NCBI GenBank assembly: GCA_037142335.1
Contig: JBAXAT010000001.1
Span: 1-25,500 of the forward strand
Source of the DNA: Verrucomicrobiota bacterium
Lineage (GTDB): Bacteria; Verrucomicrobiota; Verrucomicrobiia; Palsa-1439
Length of the DNA: 25,500 nucleotides
Direction of reading: 5' to 3'
Position 1 is the first letter of the stretch. The number at the start of each line of letters is the position of its first letter. The translations under genes were made by a program, and so were the position numbers. Under the pieces are notes generated by a model. That model had not been told where the DNA came from, made no database searches, and saw only the letters and a list, made by a program, of their open reading frames with translations. Positions 1 through 8,832 of this stretch are shown here, one piece after another.

Positions 1-965
1 TCTCCGATCATGATCACGTCGGGATCACTCCGCAGAAATGACCGTAGGGCACGGTCAAAGGTCAGGCCAAAATTCAGATTAATTTGCATTTGTGTCATGC
101 CCGGCAATAAGTATTTCACTGGATCTTCGACGCTCATGACTTTTACGCCGGGCTTGATCACTTCCTGTAAACAGGCGTAGAGCGTGGTTGTCTTGCCGGA
201 GCCAGTCGGACCAGTACAGAATACAATACCACTCGGTGACTGTAGATGTCGCCGCAGTATTGCCCGGTGCTGCGGCGAATACGGCAACTGGTCAAGTTTA
301 CGTTGGACTTCCCCCTGCCGCAAGAAGCGGGTCGTCAGGTTTTCCCCAAGGACGGTGGGGATGATGCAAACTCGCAGATCTAGCCGGGAGGCGTCCAAAT
401 CTAGTTCGATGCGGCCGTCTTGCGGTACATCCTTTATGTTCACATCGCAGTGCCCCATTCGTTTCCACTGCTCGATGATCGCCGGCAATAACCGCACATC
501 GCAAGTCACTGCCGTGTGTAACACCCCGTCCACTCGGTACCGCAGGTGGAGTTGGGAGACGCGTCCGTCGGTTTGCGATTCGAGATGAAAATCACTGGCG
601 TGCATCGCCAAGCCGAGCCGAATCATCAGATTGATTACCTTGGCCACCGGCTCGCCGGTATCCGCCAAGTTCTGTTTGCCGCCAACCGCCGTCAGCTTGG
701 CGTTGAGTGCCGCGATTAATGGCTGAATATCGGCCACCAGTTCGATGCGCGGCTGCTGGCCTTTTATGAAGCGCTCCACGTCAGCGCGGTAAAACCGCCA
801 TTGACGGCCGGCCTTCATGCCCTTGATCTTCCCAGCCCGCAGCCAACGATAAAATGTTGGTCGGGTGGTCTTCAGCAGCGCGATCGCCTGCTCCATGTCG
901 AGGAGTTCATCCGTCGTGGTTGACGGCTGCAGTGTTGCGGGAGTTTTTTGTTGTTTCATGACCAT
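1..965 (-). CDS. HTH_17 (excisionase/MerR-like) DNA-binding domain fused to a GspE/PilB/PulE-family secretion ATPase; 3' end truncated by the window edge
   Basis: Absent from the ORF track; translated by hand from ATG 965 (or in-frame ATG 959), open to position 1. N-terminus ELLDMEQAIALLKTTRPTFYRWLRAGKIKGMKAGRQWRFYRADVERFI fits the HTH_17 pattern. It is followed by ASDFHLE, LRYRVDGVL, PQDGR, DLRV, Walker A GPTGSGKTT (186-212), Asp box SVEDPVK and the start of Walker B, LRSDPDVIMIG. SD-like GAAAGGA lies upstream of ATG 965. Confidence 0.9.
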   Translation of the reverse strand, partial: MVMKQQKTPATLQPSTTTDELLDMEQAIALLKTTRPTFYRWLRAGKIKGMKAGRQWRFYRADVERFIKGQQPRIELVADIQPLIAALNAKLTAVGGKQNLADTGEPVAKVINLMIRLGLAMHASDFHLESQTDGRVSQLHLRYRVDGVLHTAVTCDVRLLPAIIEQWKRMGHCDVNIKDVPQDGRIELDLDASRLDLRVCIIPTVLGENLTTRFLRQGEVQRKLDQLPYSPQHRAILRRHLQSPSGIVFCTGPTGSGKTTTLYACLQEVIKPGVKVMSVEDPVKYLLPGMTQMQINLNFGLTFDRALRSFLRSDPDVIMIG

Positions 966-986
966 TGTTCCTTTCGATGGTCATAA

Positions 987-1009
987 CGTATCATAGGGTT
1001 TATGATACG
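987..1009. promoter_or_regulatory. Perfect 9-bp inverted repeat CGTATCATA-gggtt-TATGATACG, candidate operator overlapping the promoter of the HTH-ATPase gene
   Basis: Read directly. On the minus strand it lies across TTGCGT (1012-1007), a 16-nt spacer and TACGTT (990-985). A second dyad AACAAT-N8-ATTGTT is at 1011-1030. Confidence 0.65.
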
Positions 1010-1095
1010 CAACAATAACTTTGAATTGTTACCTTAATCCCTTATAAACATTGGCGGTTTTGAATGAAATAGTTATTACCAGCCGTAATACCGCA

Positions 1096-1797
1096 TCAAA
1101 TTAAACCGAGTTCTTTCAAACTCACAAAATCCTGGTCGCGCCCTGTCACCCGTTGTCCCAAGATGATGTGGTCGTGGACGGCAATTCCGAGCAGTTCCCC
1201 GGCCTTGACCAGCCGCCGCGTGATCGCGATGTCTTCGCTGCTCGGCGTCGGATCGCCGCTCGGATGATTATGGACCAGAATCATGCTGGCGGCGGATGCG
1301 GAAACCGCATCTTTGAAAACCTCACGAGGTTCAACGATGCTCGCGTTTAGAGAACCACGCGAAATCGGACAACTTTTGAGGAGTGCGTTTTTTGTGCTTA
1401 GCAGCAGGACGTGGAATTCTTCCCGGTCGAGCAACCGAAAATCTTCCCGGACACATGCTGCGGCTTCCGCCGGCGTGCTAATAATGCACAGTGCCGACCT
1501 GGAATGTTCCGCTAGCCGGCGTGCTAGTTCGAATGCCGCTTTCAACTGAATTGCCTTCGTCTCACCGACACCTTTGGTTTTCGCGATAGTCTCAAGTGGC
1601 GCGCCGGCAAGTTTATCGAGTGTGCCGAATTGCCGGATCAGCTCCTGCGCCAACTGCACTGCGGATATACCTTTAGTGCCAGTGCGCAGCAGAATTGCCA
1701 CCAACTCCGCCTCAGTCAACGCCCCAGGTCCGCGCTTCTTGAGCCGTTCGCGCGGCCGTTCACCTTCCGGCATCTCGCGAATGAGATAAGTGGTCAC
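1096..1797 (-). CDS. radC: RadC-family JAB/MPN domain protein (full length, with N-terminal HhH region)
   Basis: MPEGERPRERL..LTEAELVAILLRTG N-terminus and JAMM motif HNHPSGDPTPSSEDI. GTG start at 1797 overlaps the hflX stop (GTGA). The ORF-track extension to 2025 is the overlap with hflX. Confidence 0.95.
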   Translation of the reverse strand: MTTYLIREMPEGERPRERLKKRGPGALTEAELVAILLRTGTKGISAVQLAQELIRQFGTLDKLAGAPLETIAKTKGVGETKAIQLKAAFELARRLAEHSRSALCIISTPAEAAACVREDFRLLDREEFHVLLLSTKNALLKSCPISRGSLNASIVEPREVFKDAVSASAASMILVHNHPSGDPTPSSEDIAITRRLVKAGELLGIAVHDHIILGQRVTGRDQDFVSLKELGLI

Positions 1798-3077
1798 TCT
1801 TCCTTCACAACATACGGTTTTAACTCGCCGGCCAGCACGCGCGGAATTTGCGCGCGGAGAATGACCTTGCCGTCTTCGTGTTCGCGCGCCGTGACGTAAC
1901 CAGCCCGGTACACCAGCGCAATCGCCTGTTGCCGATCCGCTGGAATTGCCAGCGTGACGCTGACGCGCCGGTCGCTGAGCCGCAGTGCAATTTCTTCCTG
2001 TAACACATCGAGATTTGTTCCGCACTTCGCCGAAATTGCAACACTACCGGGATGCTCACGCTGCAATCGCTCCAATACCGACCGGTCTTCGCAAATCCGA
2101 TCAATCTTGTTCAGTGCTACCACGACCGGCTTCGTGCCGGCATCAAGCTCATCAAGCACGACCGCGACCGCAGCGATTTGCTCGTGCACTTGCGGGTGTG
2201 TCACGTCCACGACGTGCAACAGCAAATCCGCCTCGGTGGTTTCTTCGAGCGTCGCCTTGAAGGATTCGACCAGATGATGCGGCAGCTTGCGCAAAAAGCC
2301 GACAGTGTCGCTCAGTAAAATGTTCTGATTGTTCGGTAACCGATGCTTGCGCGTCGTCGGATCGAGCGTCGCGAACAACTTATCTTCCGCGAGCACACCG
2401 GCATCGGTCAACTTATTCATTAACGTGCTCTTGCCGGAGTTCGTGTAGCCAATAATTGAGACGCGCGGCCAGTGCAGTTTCTCGCGGCCACTACGTTCGA
2501 TGCGCCGGTTTTTACGGACTTCTTCGAGTTGCCGCTGCAACCGCGTAATTTTTTCCTGCACCCGCCGCCGATCGACTTCGAGTTGCGTTTCTCCCGGTCC
2601 CCGGCAACCGACACCGCCGCGCTGCCGGGACAAGTGCGTCCACATACCAGTAAGACGCGGCAACATGTAATAGAGTTGGGCGAGTTCGACTTGAATCTTG
2701 CCTTCGCGAGTCCGAGCGCGCTGCGCAAAAATATCGAGAATGAGTTCCGTCCGGTCGATTACCTTTACGGTTGGGCCAAAAATTTCGCAGAGGTTGCGAC
2801 CTTGCGCCGGCGACAGGTCATCGTCGAAAATCACGGTATTGGCGGCCAGCGCCTGACAACGGTCGGCGATTTCGGTGGCTTTGCCTTTGCCGACGAAAGT
2901 CGGCGCGCTGGGCGCATCGCGTTTCTGGGTGAGCAATTCGAGAACACCCACGCCAGCGGATTCCGCGAGTTCCCGGAGTTCGGCAAGCGAATCTTGGGCC
3001 GCCCACCGGTCCTGGCCGGGCCGTTCCAAACCGATGAGCAATGCCGCCTCGGGTGGCGGCGCTTGCGTGTCGTACAT
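1794..3077 (-). CDS. hflX: Ribosome-splitting GTPase HflX
   Basis: GPGETQLEVDRR, G1 GYTNSGKST, G2 FATLD, G3 DTVG, G4 NKID, G5 SAK. ATG 3077 lies 2 nt after the miaA stop. Confidence 0.96.
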   Translation of the reverse strand: MYDTQAPPPEAALLIGLERPGQDRWAAQDSLAELRELAESAGVGVLELLTQKRDAPSAPTFVGKGKATEIADRCQALAANTVIFDDDLSPAQGRNLCEIFGPTVKVIDRTELILDIFAQRARTREGKIQVELAQLYYMLPRLTGMWTHLSRQRGGVGCRGPGETQLEVDRRRVQEKITRLQRQLEEVRKNRRIERSGREKLHWPRVSIIGYTNSGKSTLMNKLTDAGVLAEDKLFATLDPTTRKHRLPNNQNILLSDTVGFLRKLPHHLVESFKATLEETTEADLLLHVVDVTHPQVHEQIAAVAVVLDELDAGTKPVVVALNKIDRICEDRSVLERLQREHPGSVAISAKCGTNLDVLQEEIALRLSDRRVSVTLAIPADRQQAIALVYRAGYVTAREHEDGKVILRAQIPRVLAGELKPYVVKEE

Positions 3078-5996: not shown

Positions 5997-6077
5997 ATTC
6001 CCGGTCAGTGTAGTGAACCGCGCCGCCAGTTTGTTCTTTAGACATATGCAGGCTAGGAAAGCACAACCAGAGTGCAG

Positions 6078-6494
6078 TTACTTTACTCGCTCGGCGTGGC
6101 TCTTAACATATGCCACCGCCTGCGTCATGTCTCGATCCGAGATCAAGTGCGACGGGTACTTTCGTTGATACTTGCTGATCAGTTCCACAAGATTGACTTC
6201 GTTGGAATTAATCCCCACCGTGGGATCATCTTTGTACGTTTGCAAAAGGGTGCACAAATCCATGTCGAGGTCGCTTTCCAAACCGGCAATTGCTTGATCG
6301 ATTTTCCCGTTTTGGAGTTCTCCCAGCAACATCAGCGTGCGACCGGCGTTATTGTAAGCGTGGGCGTTCCAACAGCTCAACGATTGCGACTTGAGTTCGG
6401 CCACATGCCGCTTCTGTGTGTTATGGCGGTCAATTATTGATCCCCAGAGCAGCACCTGAACGCAGATGAACAGGAAAAGTGTCTTTTTGTTCAT
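6078..6494 (-). CDS. Hypothetical protein with N-terminal hydrophobic anchor/signal
   Basis: 138-aa ORF, MNKK followed by LFLFICVQVLLWGSII; 12 nt downstream of the oxidoreductase on the same strand; fills an otherwise empty gap. Confidence 0.65.
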   Translation of the reverse strand: MNKKTLFLFICVQVLLWGSIIDRHNTQKRHVAELKSQSLSCWNAHAYNNAGRTLMLLGELQNGKIDQAIAGLESDLDMDLCTLLQTYKDDPTVGINSNEVNLVELISKYQRKYPSHLISDRDMTQAVAYVKSHAERVK

Positions 6495-6506
6495 TTTGCG
6501 ACGGTC

Positions 6507-7661
6507 TTACAACTTCACCCAGCGGTGCGTTTTCGCGGACTTCTCGACGGCGGCGAGGACAATCTGGTTCGCCAAGCCTTCGGCGAAGTCGGGCTTGACC
6601 GGCTTCTTGTCTGCGGCGGCGTTGACGAAGTCGGCAATCGTGTGCACGAAGGTGTGTTCGTAGCCGATGATGTGGCCGGGCGGCCACCACGCATTGATAT
6701 ATGGATGGACGCCGCCGCCTTCGGTGACGAGGATGTCGCGGAAGCCTTTGCGGTCGGCCGGGTCGGCATCGTTGTAATACTGCAGCCGGTTCAGGTCTTC
6801 CAAATCGAAGAGAAGCGAGCCTTTGCTGCCGTTGATTTCAATTTGGATGCCGTTTTTACGGCCGAGGGCGAAACGGGTGGCTTCGAGGTTGGCGAGCGCG
6901 CCGTTTTTGAAGCGGCCGATGAACGACACGGCATCGTCCACGGTGACTTTACCCAGTTTCTTGGAGCCGGTGGCGCTGAGGCCGCCTTGCGCGGCGGGCA
7001 GGGGTCGCTCTTTGATGAAGGTCTCCATCTGGCCGCAGACTTCGGCAAATTCGCCGATGAGGAACCGGCCGATGTCAATGATGTGGGCGTTGATGTCGCC
7101 GTGGGCGCCGCTGCCGGCAATCTTGCTCTGGAGCCGCCAGACGAGCGGGAAGCTCGGGTCCACAATCCAGTCCTGCGCATAGCGCGCCCGGTAATGGTAA
7201 ATCTGGCCGAGGTCGCCGGCGCTGATTATCTTCTGGGCGAGGACGAGCGCGGGAATCCGCCGGTAATTGTGGCAAATCATGTTTGTGATGCCAGCTCTTT
7301 TGACGACGGCCACCATTTCCCGGGCTTCCGCTACATCCAGCGCCAACGGTTTCTCGCAGAGGATTGCCTTGCCGGCCTTGGCGGCAGCGATGGCGATTTC
7401 GGCGTGCGTGTCGTTGGGTGTGGTGATGTCCACGATGTCAATCGTTGGGTCGTTGACGACATCGCGCCAATCGGTGACGAATTGATCCCAGCCCCACCGG
7501 TGCGCGGCTTCGGCGACGCCGGCCCGGTCGCGGCCGCAGATGACTTTCATCACTGGACGGGCTTTGAGGTCGAAGAATTTGTCGGCCTTGAGCCACGCGT
7601 TTGAGTGAGCGCGGCCCATGAATTTATAACCGACCATTCCAACGTTCAACGTCTTTGGCAT
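6507..7661 (-). CDS. Gfo/Idh/MocA-family NAD(P)-dependent oxidoreductase
   Basis: MPKTLNVGMVGYKFMGRAH Rossmann start, CEKP motif, GDINAHIID. SD GAGGA lies before ATG 7661 (ORF-track start 7850 is an overextension). Confidence 0.93.
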   Translation of the reverse strand: MPKTLNVGMVGYKFMGRAHSNAWLKADKFFDLKARPVMKVICGRDRAGVAEAAHRWGWDQFVTDWRDVVNDPTIDIVDITTPNDTHAEIAIAAAKAGKAILCEKPLALDVAEAREMVAVVKRAGITNMICHNYRRIPALVLAQKIISAGDLGQIYHYRARYAQDWIVDPSFPLVWRLQSKIAGSGAHGDINAHIIDIGRFLIGEFAEVCGQMETFIKERPLPAAQGGLSATGSKKLGKVTVDDAVSFIGRFKNGALANLEATRFALGRKNGIQIEINGSKGSLLFDLEDLNRLQYYNDADPADRKGFRDILVTEGGGVHPYINAWWPPGHIIGYEHTFVHTIADFVNAAADKKPVKPDFAEGLANQIVLAAVEKSAKTHRWVKL

Positions 7662-7749
7662 GTTGTCCTCTGTGGAAAAAAGTTGCGATTTGACTGGGAA
7701 TCTTATACCGGAGAGGTGCAAGTTGTGCCACAAGAAAAAGGAAAATGCC

Positions 7750-8832
7750 ATGCCCAACAAACATGTGAAATTATTTATCCCCGGCCCGGTCGAGGTCAGC
7801 CCGGAAACCTTTGCCGCAATGAGCCAGCCGATGATGGGCCATCGCGGCACCGGCTTCCAAGACCTTTACGCTGCCATTCAACCAAAAATCCAAACTCTTC
7901 TGAATACGAAGAATCCAGTATTTCTTTCCACCTCTTCGGCGTGGGGTGTGATGGAAGCCGCCGTTCGCAATCTGACCGGTAAGAAAGTCTTGAACTGCTG
8001 CTGTGGCGCATTCTCGGACAAATGGCTCGATGTTTCGAAGCGTTGCGGCAAAGACGCCGAAGCGCTCAAGGTTGAATGGGGTCAGCCGATTTTGCCGGAG
8101 CAGATTGACGCCAAACTCAAGACCGGCCAGTTCGACGCACTCACGCTCATTCACAATGAGACTTCCACCGGCTTGATGAATCCGCTCGCCGAAATTTCAG
8201 CGGTGATGAGGAAATATCCGAACGTGATGTTCATCGTGGACGCCGTAAGTTCGATGACCGGCGTAAAAATTGATACCGACGCGCTCAGTATTGATGTGTT
8301 GCTGGCCGGCGTACAGAAGGCGTGGGCGTTGCCGCCGGGGCTGGCGGTGTTCGCCGTCAGTGAGCGGGCATTGAAGAAAGCTGAGACCATCCCTGGGCGC
8401 GGCTATTACTTCGACTTCCTAGAATTTAAGGCAAATCACGATAAGAACATGACTCCGAGCACGCCGAGTATTCCGCACATCTACGGCTTGAAGTTCAAGC
8501 TCGACCAGATCGAGAAAGAAGGTCTCGACAACCGGTACGCCCGGCACTTGAAGATGGCCGGCATGGTGCACGATTGGGTGAAGACGCGCGGCTTCGAGAT
8601 GTTCCCGAAAGCCGGTTACGAATCCGTCACGCTCTCCTGCGTTAAAAATAATAAAAACATCGACGTCGCCAAACTCCAAAAAGCCTTGAAGGACAAATAC
8701 CGGGTGCTGATTGACGGCGGTTACGGCCAAATCAAAGGCAAGAGTTTCCGCATCGGCCACATGGGCGACGAAACACCTGCCACAGTCGCCGAATTGCTCG
8801 GTTGGCTCGACGATTGTCTGAAGACGCTCTAA
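7750..8832 (+). CDS. Class V PLP-dependent aminotransferase (alanine/serine-glyoxylate type)
   Basis: LFIPGPVEV, MMGHR, HNETSTG, VDAVSS, GVQKAWALPPGL (PLP lysine), FRIGHMG. SD-like AAGGA lies before ATG 7750. Confidence 0.92.
   Translation: MPNKHVKLFIPGPVEVSPETFAAMSQPMMGHRGTGFQDLYAAIQPKIQTLLNTKNPVFLSTSSAWGVMEAAVRNLTGKKVLNCCCGAFSDKWLDVSKRCGKDAEALKVEWGQPILPEQIDAKLKTGQFDALTLIHNETSTGLMNPLAEISAVMRKYPNVMFIVDAVSSMTGVKIDTDALSIDVLLAGVQKAWALPPGLAVFAVSERALKKAETIPGRGYYFDFLEFKANHDKNMTPSTPSIPHIYGLKFKLDQIEKEGLDNRYARHLKMAGMVHDWVKTRGFEMFPKAGYESVTLSCVKNNKNIDVAKLQKALKDKYRVLIDGGYGQIKGKSFRIGHMGDETPATVAELLGWLDDCLKTL

What the first reader, a model, noticed from the sequence alone, without database searches (positions are those of the whole stretch)
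1..965. DNA-binding HTH_17 domain fused to a GspE/PilB secretion ATPase
Seen: one open frame joins an excisionase/MerR-like HTH (about 762-905) to the N2D and ATPase core of a T2SS/T4P motor ATPase. Established: GspE/PilB proteins normally carry an N1D/MshEN partner-binding region here and form hexamers at the inner-membrane platform; HTH_17 is a small DNA-binding module known in fusions such as PTS EIIA. Inference: swapping the platform-binding domain for a DNA-binding one suggests a repurposed ATPase, either an oligomeric ATP-dependent transcription regulator or a link between pilus/DNA-uptake machinery and DNA. No pilC/gspF or pilin gene is visible upstream, but downstream genes are outside the window. 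I cannot tell whether the architecture is already catalogued.
Basis: partly seen in the sequence, partly recalled or inferred. Interest (0 to 1): 0.72.

Follow-up and report, generated by a model that had tools for sequence, protein, structure and literature searches.

The report
Self-repressing DNA-binding pilus-type motor ATPase
A real, intact gene joins a small DNA-binding domain to a pilus/secretion-type motor ATPase, and the only matching DNA site in each of six genomes checked lies inside the gene's own promoter, so the motor most likely shuts off its own production; this protein family is widespread but I found no study of it.

Summary
Window 3-965 (minus strand) encodes HTH_17 (aa 21-70), a 35-aa linker, then the N2D and ATPase core of a GspE/PilB-type ATPase.

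- **Gene integrity.** The gene runs off the contig and continues on contig C44, giving about 501-503 aa. It is 98% identical over its full length to an independent metagenome protein, and four metagenome runs show no indels.
- **Catalytic state.** All catalytic motifs and the four-cysteine cluster are conserved. The usual N1D/MshEN domain is absent.
- **Distribution.** At least 380 species genomes carry the fusion (Verrucomicrobiota, Planctomycetota, Lentisphaerota, Armatimonadota and others). It is patchy even within the genus, always a lone gene with no conserved neighbours, and no paper was found.
- **New here.** The HTH is the best conserved part. A palindrome, TATCATA-N5-TATGATA plus a third half-site, fills the spacer of a near-consensus promoter upstream of orthologues across phyla. 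It occurs once per genome in 6 of 6 genomes, always at this gene.
- **Reading.** This is an autorepressed, stand-alone assembly-type motor ATPase. It is not a global regulator, and its client machine is unknown.

The scan had noted related HTH-ATPase fusions on other DNA (e1-976250) and this window's dyad (e1-5299443).

The parts
3..965 (-). 5' two thirds (aa 1-321) of the HTH_17-GspE/PilB-like ATPase gene. The likely true start is the second ATG at 959. The remaining 182 codons lie on contig C44 of the same assembly (L002/L007 67-613).
756..905 (-). HTH_17 / excisionase-type winged helix-turn-helix (aa 21-70). The recognition helix TFYRW is at 857-843 and the wing GRQWRF at 809-792. This is the best conserved part of the family (78% identity among distant members).
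657..755 (-). Conserved linker (aa 71-103) with the PRIEL motif and one predicted helix. It takes the place of the N1D/MshEN domain.
3..656 (-). N2D domain and first half of the ATPase core. It holds the LRYRVDG arginines (545-525), Walker A GPTGSGKTT (212-186), the Asp box SVEDPV (134-117) and Walker B DPDVIMIG (26-3).
987..1009 (.). Perfect 9-5-9 palindrome CGTATCATA-aaccc-TATGATACG, with core TATCATA-N5-TATGATA at 989-1007. It is the candidate operator and the only copy in the assembled genome.
979..985 (-). Third half-site (TATGACC; family consensus TATGAT[A]), 3 nt after the second half-site and in direct repeat with it.
1007..1012 (-). -35-like hexamer TTGCGT (TTGACA/TTTACA in most orthologues), abutting the left half-site.
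   Evidence: (alignment of 34 upstream regions)
985..990 (-). -10-like hexamer TACGTT (TAtacT/TAtatT in orthologues), overlapping the end of the right half-site. The operator therefore fills the promoter spacer.
   Evidence: inference
969..974 (-). Ribosome-binding site AAAGGA.

Best explanation
The gene encodes a stand-alone, catalytically intact assembly-type (GspE/PilB-class) hexameric ATPase. Its usual machine-docking N1D/MshEN domain has been replaced by an excisionase-type HTH_17 domain. The HTH most likely binds a composite operator: inverted repeat TATCATA-N5-TATGATA plus a third TATGATA half-site 3 nt further on. This operator fills the 17-nt spacer and the start region of the gene's own near-consensus sigma-70 promoter, so the protein would repress its own transcription. 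Promoter, operator and ORF together form a self-contained single-gene cassette that is gained and lost as a unit. Negative feedback would hold the free pool of the motor at a set level. By analogy with PutA or BirA, molecules engaged elsewhere (at a membrane platform, or in another nucleotide or oligomeric state) would leave the operator and allow new synthesis. What is shown here: the fusion, the intact motifs, the conserved operator and its one-per-genome occurrence, and the cassette indel. What is inferred: DNA binding by the HTH, repression, hexamer formation, and the client of the ATPase. That client is unknown; my best guess is a type IV pilus / T2SS-like platform encoded elsewhere.
For: 1. 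Real fusion. Pfam and NCBIfam hit both domains. The full-length join matches an independent protein at 98% identity. Four metagenome runs show no indels.
2. Active ATPase. In 50 family members the Walker A Lys is kept in 50/50, the Walker B Glu in 49/50, the His-box histidines in 47-49/50, three N2D arginines in 50/50 and four Zn-type cysteines in 50/50. The AF2 model (pLDDT 90) superposes on PilB, PilF and GspE structures at TM 0.8-0.9, normalised to the solved chain.
3. The HTH is under the strongest constraint. It shows 78% identity among distant members, against 48-56% for the ATPase domains. The recognition helix and wing are invariant.
4. Operator enrichment. The palindrome (at most 1 mismatch per half-site) occurs in 26 of 52 orthologue upstream regions of 411 bp, against 2 hits in 603 kb of flanking DNA. 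With up to 2 mismatches, 34 loci (33 orthologues plus the window) align on it. They show the layout TTGACA | TATCATA-N5-TATGATA | TAtacT plus a third half-site.
5. One site per genome. The exact motif occurs once in the window's genome, where 0.0025 is expected. It occurs exactly once, at up to 1 mismatch, in each of five other genomes of 4.5-8 Mb, always just upstream of this gene.
6. The palindrome travels with the gene. Genomes of the same genus or family that lack the gene have no copy with 0-1 mismatch, and 2-mismatch hits are at the control level.
7. The palindrome tracks the HTH type. The Armatimonadota-type clade, whose recognition helix differs, has no match at up to 2 mismatches in any of its 17 loci.
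8. Lone cassette. No neighbour family is conserved in 54 loci. The upstream gap is usually over 50 bp and the downstream gene often lies on the other strand. A same-genus genome lacks exactly the promoter plus ORF between radC and the shared downstream region.
9. Not the canonical motor. The genome has two MshEN+T2SSE ATPases, one in a pilT-pilB-pilC row. The family's ATPase cores form their own clade (SH-aLRT 99), apart from those paralogues.
Against: - No experiment or DNA-protein model shows that this HTH binds the palindrome. Another factor could in principle bind it.
- 12 to 18 of the 52 TFYRW-type loci (12, 18) show no N5-spaced copy with 2 or fewer mismatches.
- The Armatimonadota-type clade has no recognisable operator, so autoregulation may not hold for the whole family.
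- If the gene's own promoter is the only target, the benefit of fusing the repressor to the enzyme rests on analogy only.
- No partner machine was identified. The window's own assembly (81% complete) shows a single platform gene, which already has its own ATPase.
- The -35 and -10 assignments are consensus matches, not mapped transcription starts.
Confidence: 0.62

Rival explanations
1. ATP-dependent oligomeric transcription regulator with a regulon. The hexameric ATPase would serve as a sensor or remodelling module, and the HTH would direct it to several promoters.
For: An HTH joined to an oligomeric ATPase recalls NtrC-type activators (own knowledge). The HTH is highly conserved. Half-sites or weaker sites elsewhere cannot be excluded by pattern searches.
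Against: The palindrome occurs once per genome in 6 of 6 genomes, at the gene itself. Looser matches are at chance or control level. The ATPase keeps every feature of a mechanical assembly motor, including the Zn cluster and N2D arginines. There is no sigma-54 activation or other regulator domain.
Confidence: 0.1
2. The HTH_17 domain is a protein-docking module that replaces N1D and ties the motor to a pilus or T2SS-like machine (for example a PilM/GspL-like protein). The upstream palindrome is then bound by some other factor.
For: Earlier scan notes report small excisionase-type HTH genes at the head of pilus/T2SS-like operons in other genomes (e1-2091400, e1-2234069; not checked here). The HTH sits where the partner-binding N1D normally is.
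Against: The palindrome travels with the gene across phyla and is missing from related genomes that lack it. It is also absent where the recognition helix differs. The invariant residues are those of the recognition helix and wing. The gene is never next to machine genes.
Confidence: 0.08
3. A DNA-directed motor. The unique site would act as a loading or anchoring site, centromere-like or KOPS-like. The hexamer would act on DNA there, or tether that locus to the membrane, and repression would be a by-product.
For: There is one site per genome, next to the gene, as with many partition systems. The three half-sites could engage several subunits of one oligomer. Related ATPase folds such as FtsK and PINA do act on DNA (own knowledge; weak PINA hit of 24.6 bits).
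Against: The site sits exactly in the promoter spacer, which is the classical repressor layout. The genomic position of the cassette is not conserved, even within the genus. No GspE/PilB-class ATPase is known to translocate DNA (own knowledge).
Confidence: 0.1
4. Artefact: a chimeric assembly or two separate genes read as one.
For: The gene is cut by a contig end, and the assembly is a fragmented MAG of 513 contigs.
Against: A 98%-identical full-length protein comes from another assembly. Contigs of several studies are identical or near-identical and carry no indels. Hundreds of homologues share the same two-domain architecture.
Confidence: 0.01

Closest known systems
GspE/EpsE, the type II secretion ATPase (Vibrio; PDB 1P9R, 4KSR, 4PHT; NCBIfam TIGR02533)
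   Same: N2D plus C-terminal ATPase domain with Walker A/B, Asp and His boxes, the four-cysteine Zn site and N2D arginines. Identity is 35-39% over residues about 100-495, with Foldseek TM 0.6-0.8 normalised to the solved chain. This is the best NCBIfam hit (408 bits).
   Different: There is no N1D that binds GspL; an HTH_17 sits in its place. The score is far below the equivalog cut-off of 630. The gene is not in a gsp operon, stands alone, and carries its own operator.
PilB/PilF, the type IVa pilus extension ATPases (Geobacter 5TSH/6OLJ, Thermus 5OIU/5IT5, Myxococcus 3JC8; TIGR02538)
   Same: Best structural matches: TM 0.88-0.91 normalised to the solved chain, 37-38% identity. It has the same extension-motor hallmarks and differs from the PilT retraction motors.
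   Different: It lacks the MshEN/GSPII c-di-GMP-binding N-terminal domains that the genome's own two PilB-like paralogues carry. It scores 385 bits against a cut-off of 676. It forms a separate clade from the canonical paralogues.
ComGA, the competence pilus ATPase of Firmicutes (NF041000)
   Same: An assembly ATPase that also lacks an N1D/MshEN domain. This shows that such motors can work without it (own knowledge; 200.7 bits).
   Different: ComGA sits in the comG operon, has no DNA-binding domain, and the score here is below its cut-off of 300.
Enzyme-repressor fusions such as PutA, BirA and NadR (functional analogy only, from own knowledge)
   Same: An enzyme carries a small N-terminal DNA-binding domain that represses its own gene or operon. 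Partitioning between DNA and the site of work sets expression.
   Different: There is no homology. For this protein neither DNA binding nor a switch has been shown.
Excisionase / MerR-like HTH_17 proteins (Xis, TorI, AlpA, BldC; PF12728, TIGR01764; MADS MAD1)
   Same: The same small winged-helix fold and signature, with scores over both cut-offs. BldC- and Xis-type proteins bind repeated half-sites, as the three half-sites here would suggest (own knowledge).
   Different: There is no integrase or mobile-element neighbour. The domain is fused to a 400-aa motor ATPase.
Phycisphaerae family with an HTH, an acidic linker and a dead GspE-like ATPase, noted earlier in this scan (e1-976250)
   Same: An HTH head on a pilus-motor ATPase fold, uncharacterised.
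   Different: As described, that family has lost its catalytic residues and has a long acidic linker. The family here keeps all motifs and has a short conserved linker. I did not compare the sequences directly.

Membership tests
GspE/PilB-class secretion ATPases (Pfam T2SSE, PF00437) | T2SSE domain over the gathering score | tested here: met
   193 bits (cut-off 24.9) for the window part alone. The C44 part scores 182 bits. Orthologues score 313-360 bits.
GspE/PilB-class secretion ATPases (Pfam T2SSE, PF00437) | Walker A, Asp box, Walker B and His box are intact | tested here: met
   GPTGSGKTT, SVEDPV and DPDVIMIGEMRD are read across the window and C44, and TGHLVLTTLHT is on C44. They are conserved in 47-50 of 50 members.
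GspE/PilB-class secretion ATPases (Pfam T2SSE, PF00437) | Four-cysteine Zn-binding cluster of extension-type motors (absent from PilT) | tested here: met
   CLEC and CAKC are on the C44 part. The four cysteines are kept in 50/50 members.
GspE/PilB-class secretion ATPases (Pfam T2SSE, PF00437) | N-terminal N1D / MshEN (GSPII) partner- or c-di-GMP-binding domain | tested here: not met
   There is no MshEN hit and HTH_17 sits in its place. The genome's two canonical paralogues do have MshEN.
GspE (TIGR02533) / PilB (TIGR02538) equivalogs | Score over NCBIfam's equivalog cut-off | tested here: not met
   408 against 630, and 385 against 676, for the 98%-identical full-length P0001.
GspE/PilB as the motor of a pilus or T2SS operon | Encoded beside a platform (PilC/GspF), pilins or alignment-complex genes | tested here: not met
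   The neighbours are radC and an alpha/beta hydrolase. No neighbour family is conserved in 54 loci.
GspE/PilB-class secretion ATPases | Hexamer formation and ATP hydrolysis | not testable with these tools
   There is only the monomer model (pLDDT 90.3) with a PilB-like fold. A hexamer exceeds the size limit of the complex tool.
HTH_17 / excisionase-family DNA-binding domain (PF12728, TIGR01764) | Profile match over the cut-off and a beta-alpha-alpha-beta-beta-alpha winged-helix fold | tested here: met
   49.6 bits against 27, and 42.2 against 28.8. The model places strand 19-21, helices 22-29 and 33-41, strands 48-50 and 53-57, and helix 58-65.
HTH_17 / excisionase-family DNA-binding domain | Binds specific DNA | not testable with these tools
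   The evidence is indirect only: a conserved palindrome, one per genome, in the gene's own promoter that co-occurs with this HTH type.
Excisionase (recombination directionality factor) | Partnered with an integrase on a mobile element | tested here: not met
   No integrase or other conserved neighbour was found in 54 loci.
NtrC-type bacterial enhancer-binding proteins (ATP-dependent regulators) | AAA+ sigma-54 interaction domain | tested here: not met
   Pfam finds T2SSE and only sub-threshold generic P-loop hits. There is no Sigma54_activat hit.

The most novel reading that the evidence does not exclude
The promoter-operator-ORF unit is a horizontally mobile single-gene cassette. Its product is a pilus-type hexameric motor that reads out its own engagement state. 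Subunits not engaged with a membrane machine (or in a given nucleotide state) sit on the unique three-half-site operator, so machine occupancy would be coupled directly to transcription. Alternatively, the hexamer uses that unique site as a loading or anchoring point and acts on DNA itself. Either would be a mode of action not described for the GspE/PilB/PilT ATPase family.
Probability: 0.15. Interest if true: 0.85.

Novelty: new variant of a known kind. Interest (0 to 1): 0.62.

Why it matters
GspE/PilB ATPases are among the best studied bacterial motors, and they are thought to act only at membrane platforms. Here a distinct subfamily spans several phyla, with about 140 clusters at 50% identity and at least 380 species genomes. 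It has swapped the platform-docking domain for a DNA-binding one and carries a matching, one-per-genome operator in its own promoter.

If the inferred binding holds, this would be the first case known to me of a pilus/secretion motor that directly controls its own transcription. It would also be a compact, portable repressor-operator pair with a near-consensus promoter.

The finding also corrects database names. These proteins are labelled 'PilB', 'TadA' or 'excisionase', and none of these fits. Finally, it gives simple tests, an EMSA and a reporter assay, for a family found mostly in uncultured PVC-group bacteria.

Tried and rejected
- **Conserved neighbours.** I called ORFs in 72 related loci and clustered them with all-against-all BLASTP. 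No neighbour family was shared. The only multi-locus cluster was antisense shadow ORFs over the gene itself.
- **Literature.** Six full-text searches (HTH_17 + T2SSE; the two Pfam numbers; GspE/PilB with helix-turn-helix, excisionase or DNA-binding domain; HTH_17 + pilus) found no paper on this architecture.
- **Defence or phage role.** PADLOC matched only the HTH (mad1) and gave weak P-loop hits. PHROGs matched only generic ATPase and excisionase families.
- **N-terminal dimer.** Complex prediction of residues 15-100 in two copies gave no verdict. It counts neither for nor against.
- **Operator of the Armatimonadota-type clade.** Searches for shared dyads, k-mers or the palindrome upstream of 17-19 loci found nothing.
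- **Other targets in the window's genome.** Looser inverted-repeat and direct-repeat searches gave only chance-level hits.
- **Expression.** No RNA holder was listed among the public runs. This is no evidence either way.
- **Stand-alone HTH_17 genes in the window's genome.** One strong hit on C375 lies at a contig end beside TPR and membrane-protein ORFs that I did not identify, which is uninformative. Two weak hits were also found.
- **Phylum-wide co-occurrence with platform genes.** I did not pursue this. The family was found in 0 of 150 sampled high-quality genomes of the phylum, and related genomes carry 3-4 platforms whether or not they have the gene.
Full report
**1. The observation**

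The minus strand of window 3-965 is one open frame of 321 codons that runs off the window. The window start is also the start of contig C1 of a fragmented MAG: 2.27 Mb, 513 contigs, 81% complete.

Pfam places HTH_17 at aa 21-70 (E 4.8e-13, 49.6 bits, cut-off 27) and T2SSE at aa 104-321 (E 7.9e-57, profile positions 5-218 of 370). NCBIfam agrees, with the excisionase-family domain plus GspE and PilB as best ATPase models.

The missing 3' part lies on contig C44. Its first 66 bases are the reverse complement of window 1-66 (65 of 66 identical). It continues the frame for 182 more codons, covering T2SSE profile positions 198-370.

The joined protein has 503 aa, or 501 from the better-placed second ATG at 959. 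It is 492/501 identical along its whole length to P0001, a protein from an independent metagenome assembly.

Contigs of four freshwater or lake metagenome runs from four studies lie on window 1-1100 without any insertion or deletion. One covers 144-1100 with no difference. One from another study covers window 1-401 and runs 128 nt past window base 1.

**2. Anatomy of the protein**

An alignment of 50 family members at 48-90% identity and an AlphaFold2 model of P0001 (pLDDT 90.3, pTM 0.81) give the following layout:
- a variable N-terminal tail, often rich in Lys and Arg;
- a winged HTH (strand 19-21, helices 22-29 and 33-41, strands 48-50 and 53-57, helix 58-65);
- a conserved linker with a PRIEL motif and one helix (79-91);
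- the N2D domain, from residue 104;
- the C-terminal ATPase domain.

Residues about 100-495 match solved GspE, PilB and PilF structures at 35-39% identity. The TM-score, normalised to the solved chain, is 0.6-0.8 for the GspE entries and up to 0.91 for PilB and PilF. The first 100 residues match none of them.

The catalytic equipment is conserved across the 50 members:

| Feature | Kept in |
|---|---|
| Walker A Lys | 50/50 |
| Asp-box Glu | 50/50 |
| Walker B Glu | 49/50 |
| His-box histidines | 47 and 49/50 |
| N2D arginines R140, R142, R196 | 50/50 |
| N2D arginine R211 | 47/50 |
| Four cysteines of the Zn cluster | 50/50 |

The Zn cluster marks extension-type motors. This looks like a working assembly-type ATPase, unlike the 'dead' HTH-ATPase family noted earlier in the scan (e1-976250).

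There is no N1D/MshEN domain. The scores stay well under the GspE and PilB equivalog cut-offs: 408 against 630, and 385 against 676.

The most conserved part of the protein is the HTH. Distant members are 78% identical there, against 43% in the linker, 48% in N2D and 56% in the ATPase domain. The recognition helix (TFYRW) and the wing (GRQWRF) are invariant.

**3. Surroundings and distribution**

In the window the gene follows miaA, hflX and radC on the same strand. On C44 it is followed by an alpha/beta hydrolase that is split into two ORFs.

The genome has two canonical MshEN+T2SSE ATPases (572 and 570 aa), one of them in a pilT-like, pilB, pilC row, plus another PilT-like gene. The HTH protein is therefore an extra motor, not the canonical one.

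The top 120 database hits almost all carry PF12728+PF00437 at about 480-540 aa. They are named 'ATPase, T2SS/T4P/T4SS family', 'PilB', 'TadA' or 'excisionase family DNA binding protein'.

They come from Verrucomicrobiota, Planctomycetota (including a Kuenenia MAG), Lentisphaerota, Sumerlaeota, Armatimonadota, Abditibacteriota, Sericytochromatia, Omnitrophota and a few oddly labelled MAGs. An exhaustive HMMER search with the HTH-linker found 140 clusters at 50% identity with E below 1e-10. About half are roughly 470-550 aa long; the shorter ones are probably fragments, which I did not check.

Even so, the gene is patchy:
- 0 of 150 sampled high-quality genomes of the phylum carry it;
- 3 of 24 genomes of the family carry it;
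- 2 of 4 other genomes of the genus carry it.

Within the genus, one genome has an 88% orthologue at the same locus. Another has a copy that is only 68% identical in the N-terminal query (about 55% over the whole protein, by the identity of its product P0065 to P0001), at a different locus.

Gene neighbourhoods differ from lineage to lineage. In 54 loci no neighbour family is shared.

A same-genus genome without the gene has the radC stop, 8 nt, and then the same downstream region that follows the gene's stop codon in the 88% orthologue's genome. The indel therefore comprises just the promoter plus ORF, about 1.6 kb.

On a tree of the ATPase cores, the main HTH family forms one clade (34 rows, SH-aLRT 99). 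It is separate from the canonical paralogues of the same genomes, and phyla are intermixed within it. An Armatimonadota/Lentisphaerota HTH clade is placed without resolution. One Omnitrophota HTH protein nests among the canonical ATPases (quick search, midpoint root only).

**4. The operator**

Following a first-stage note on this window (e1-5299443), I looked for inverted repeats upstream of the orthologues.

The window has the perfect 9-5-9 palindrome CGTATCATA-aaccc-TATGATACG at 987-1009, ending 21 nt before ATG 965. The same core, TATCATA-N5-TATGATA, turned up as a perfect repeat upstream of orthologues that are only 50-57% identical and come from other phyla.

The numbers:
- With at most one mismatch per half-site, it is present in 26 of 52 upstream regions (411 bp each, about 21 kb in all). 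There are 2 hits in 603 kb of the surrounding loci.
- With up to two mismatches in all and N5 spacing, 34 loci (33 orthologues plus the window) align on it.

Aligned on the palindrome, these regions share a full promoter layout:
- an A/T-rich stretch;
- TTGACA or TTTACA directly abutting the left half-site;
- the palindrome as the 17-nt spacer;
- a TAtacT/TAtatT hexamer that starts with the last two bases of the right half-site;
- a third TATGAT(A) half-site 3 nt further on.

The window version reads TTGCGT (1012-1007), the palindrome, TACGTT (990-985), TATGACC (985-979) and the RBS AAAGGA (974-969).

Genome-wide results:
- The exact motif occurs once in the window's assembly, where 0.0025 copies are expected.
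- At up to one mismatch it occurs exactly once in each of five other carrier genomes of 4.5-8 Mb, each time just upstream of this gene.
- Related genomes that lack the gene have no 0-1-mismatch copy, and their 2-mismatch hits equal the reversed-pattern control.
- The clade whose recognition helix reads PTLYRLL instead of PTFYRWL has no such palindrome.

**5. Interpretation**

A near-invariant recognition helix and wing, together with a near-invariant palindrome that travels with the gene, occurs nowhere else in the genome and fills the spacer of the gene's own promoter, is the classical signature of direct negative autoregulation. Binding itself is inferred, not shown.

Because there is a single site per genome, the protein is unlikely to be a regulator of other genes through this motif. 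The output of the system must therefore lie in the ATPase, which keeps all features of a mechanical extension motor. What it drives is unknown. It has no platform gene of its own and lacks the domain that normally docks such motors to GspL or PilM.

My working model is a stand-alone motor whose free pool is held constant by self-repression, in the manner of PutA or BirA (analogy from general knowledge). Molecules that are engaged elsewhere, or that are in another nucleotide or oligomeric state, would be released from the operator.

Three half-sites, two inverted and one direct, suggest that more than two HTH domains of one oligomer may bind. This is speculation.

The rivals are a wider regulon, the HTH as a protein-docking module, a DNA-directed motor and an artefact. 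They are listed with their evidence in the rival explanations.

**6. Comparison and novelty**

By fold and motifs the protein works like a GspE/PilB extension ATPase. It fails three membership features of the canonical families: the N1D/MshEN domain, the equivalog score and the operon context. It forms its own clade.

The domain pair is already present in public databases, so the architecture as such is catalogued. However, I found no paper on it, and the database names are misleading.

I rate the finding a new variant of a known kind, of moderate to high interest. It is cheap to test, and if confirmed it would be the first pilus/secretion-type motor known to me that directly controls its own transcription.

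Noticed in passing
L007 (contig C44) 696-1289 and 1350-1748: The alpha/beta hydrolase (Abhydrolase_1) just downstream of the gene is split into two ORFs, covering profile positions 1-102 and 200-241. This may be a frameshifted pseudogene or an assembly error. This roughly 1.15-kb stretch is absent at the same place in the same-genus genome G157.
   Followed up: partly
window 1-66 / C44 1-66; window base 55: The contig break inside the gene coincides with a T/G polymorphism at window base 55. C44 and contigs of three runs read G there. Strain heterogeneity in the Walker B region probably broke the assembly.
   Followed up: partly
window 1011-1030: A second dyad, AACAAT-N8-ATTGTT, lies directly upstream of the -35-like hexamer, in the A/T-rich stretch. 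The aligned orthologue regions show only general A/T-richness there, not this dyad.
   Followed up: partly
window 1096-2025 (minus strand): The longest radC frame (309 aa, GTG start) overlaps the end of hflX. The RadC domains (UPF0758_N plus the JAB domain) fill only the last 233 aa, so the true start is probably at about 1797.
   Followed up: partly
L070 (Omnitrophota MAG), 6001-8057: An HTH-bearing ATPase whose ATPase core groups with canonical PilB-like paralogues rather than with the main HTH family. This may be an independent fusion. Support is weak (SH-aLRT 81, unresolved fork).
   Followed up: no
L061-L080 (Armatimonadota, Abditibacteriota, some Lentisphaerota): A sister-type HTH-ATPase clade has a different recognition helix (SKPTLYRLL). 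My crude ORF calls for it are 500-740 aa, longer in several loci. No palindrome was found upstream, so its DNA target, if any, is unknown.
   Followed up: partly
P0193 (2039 aa): A very long protein matched the query's residues 54-90 (end of the HTH and the linker) in 16 separate stretches. This repeat protein is of unknown meaning.
   Followed up: no
L021, L039, L052, L087, L090: Family members, or in L090 only a weak match to the N-terminal part, sit on contigs labelled Anaerolineales, Nitrospiraceae, Pseudomonadales and Bifidobacteriaceae. This reflects either horizontal transfer or binning and labelling errors.
   Followed up: no
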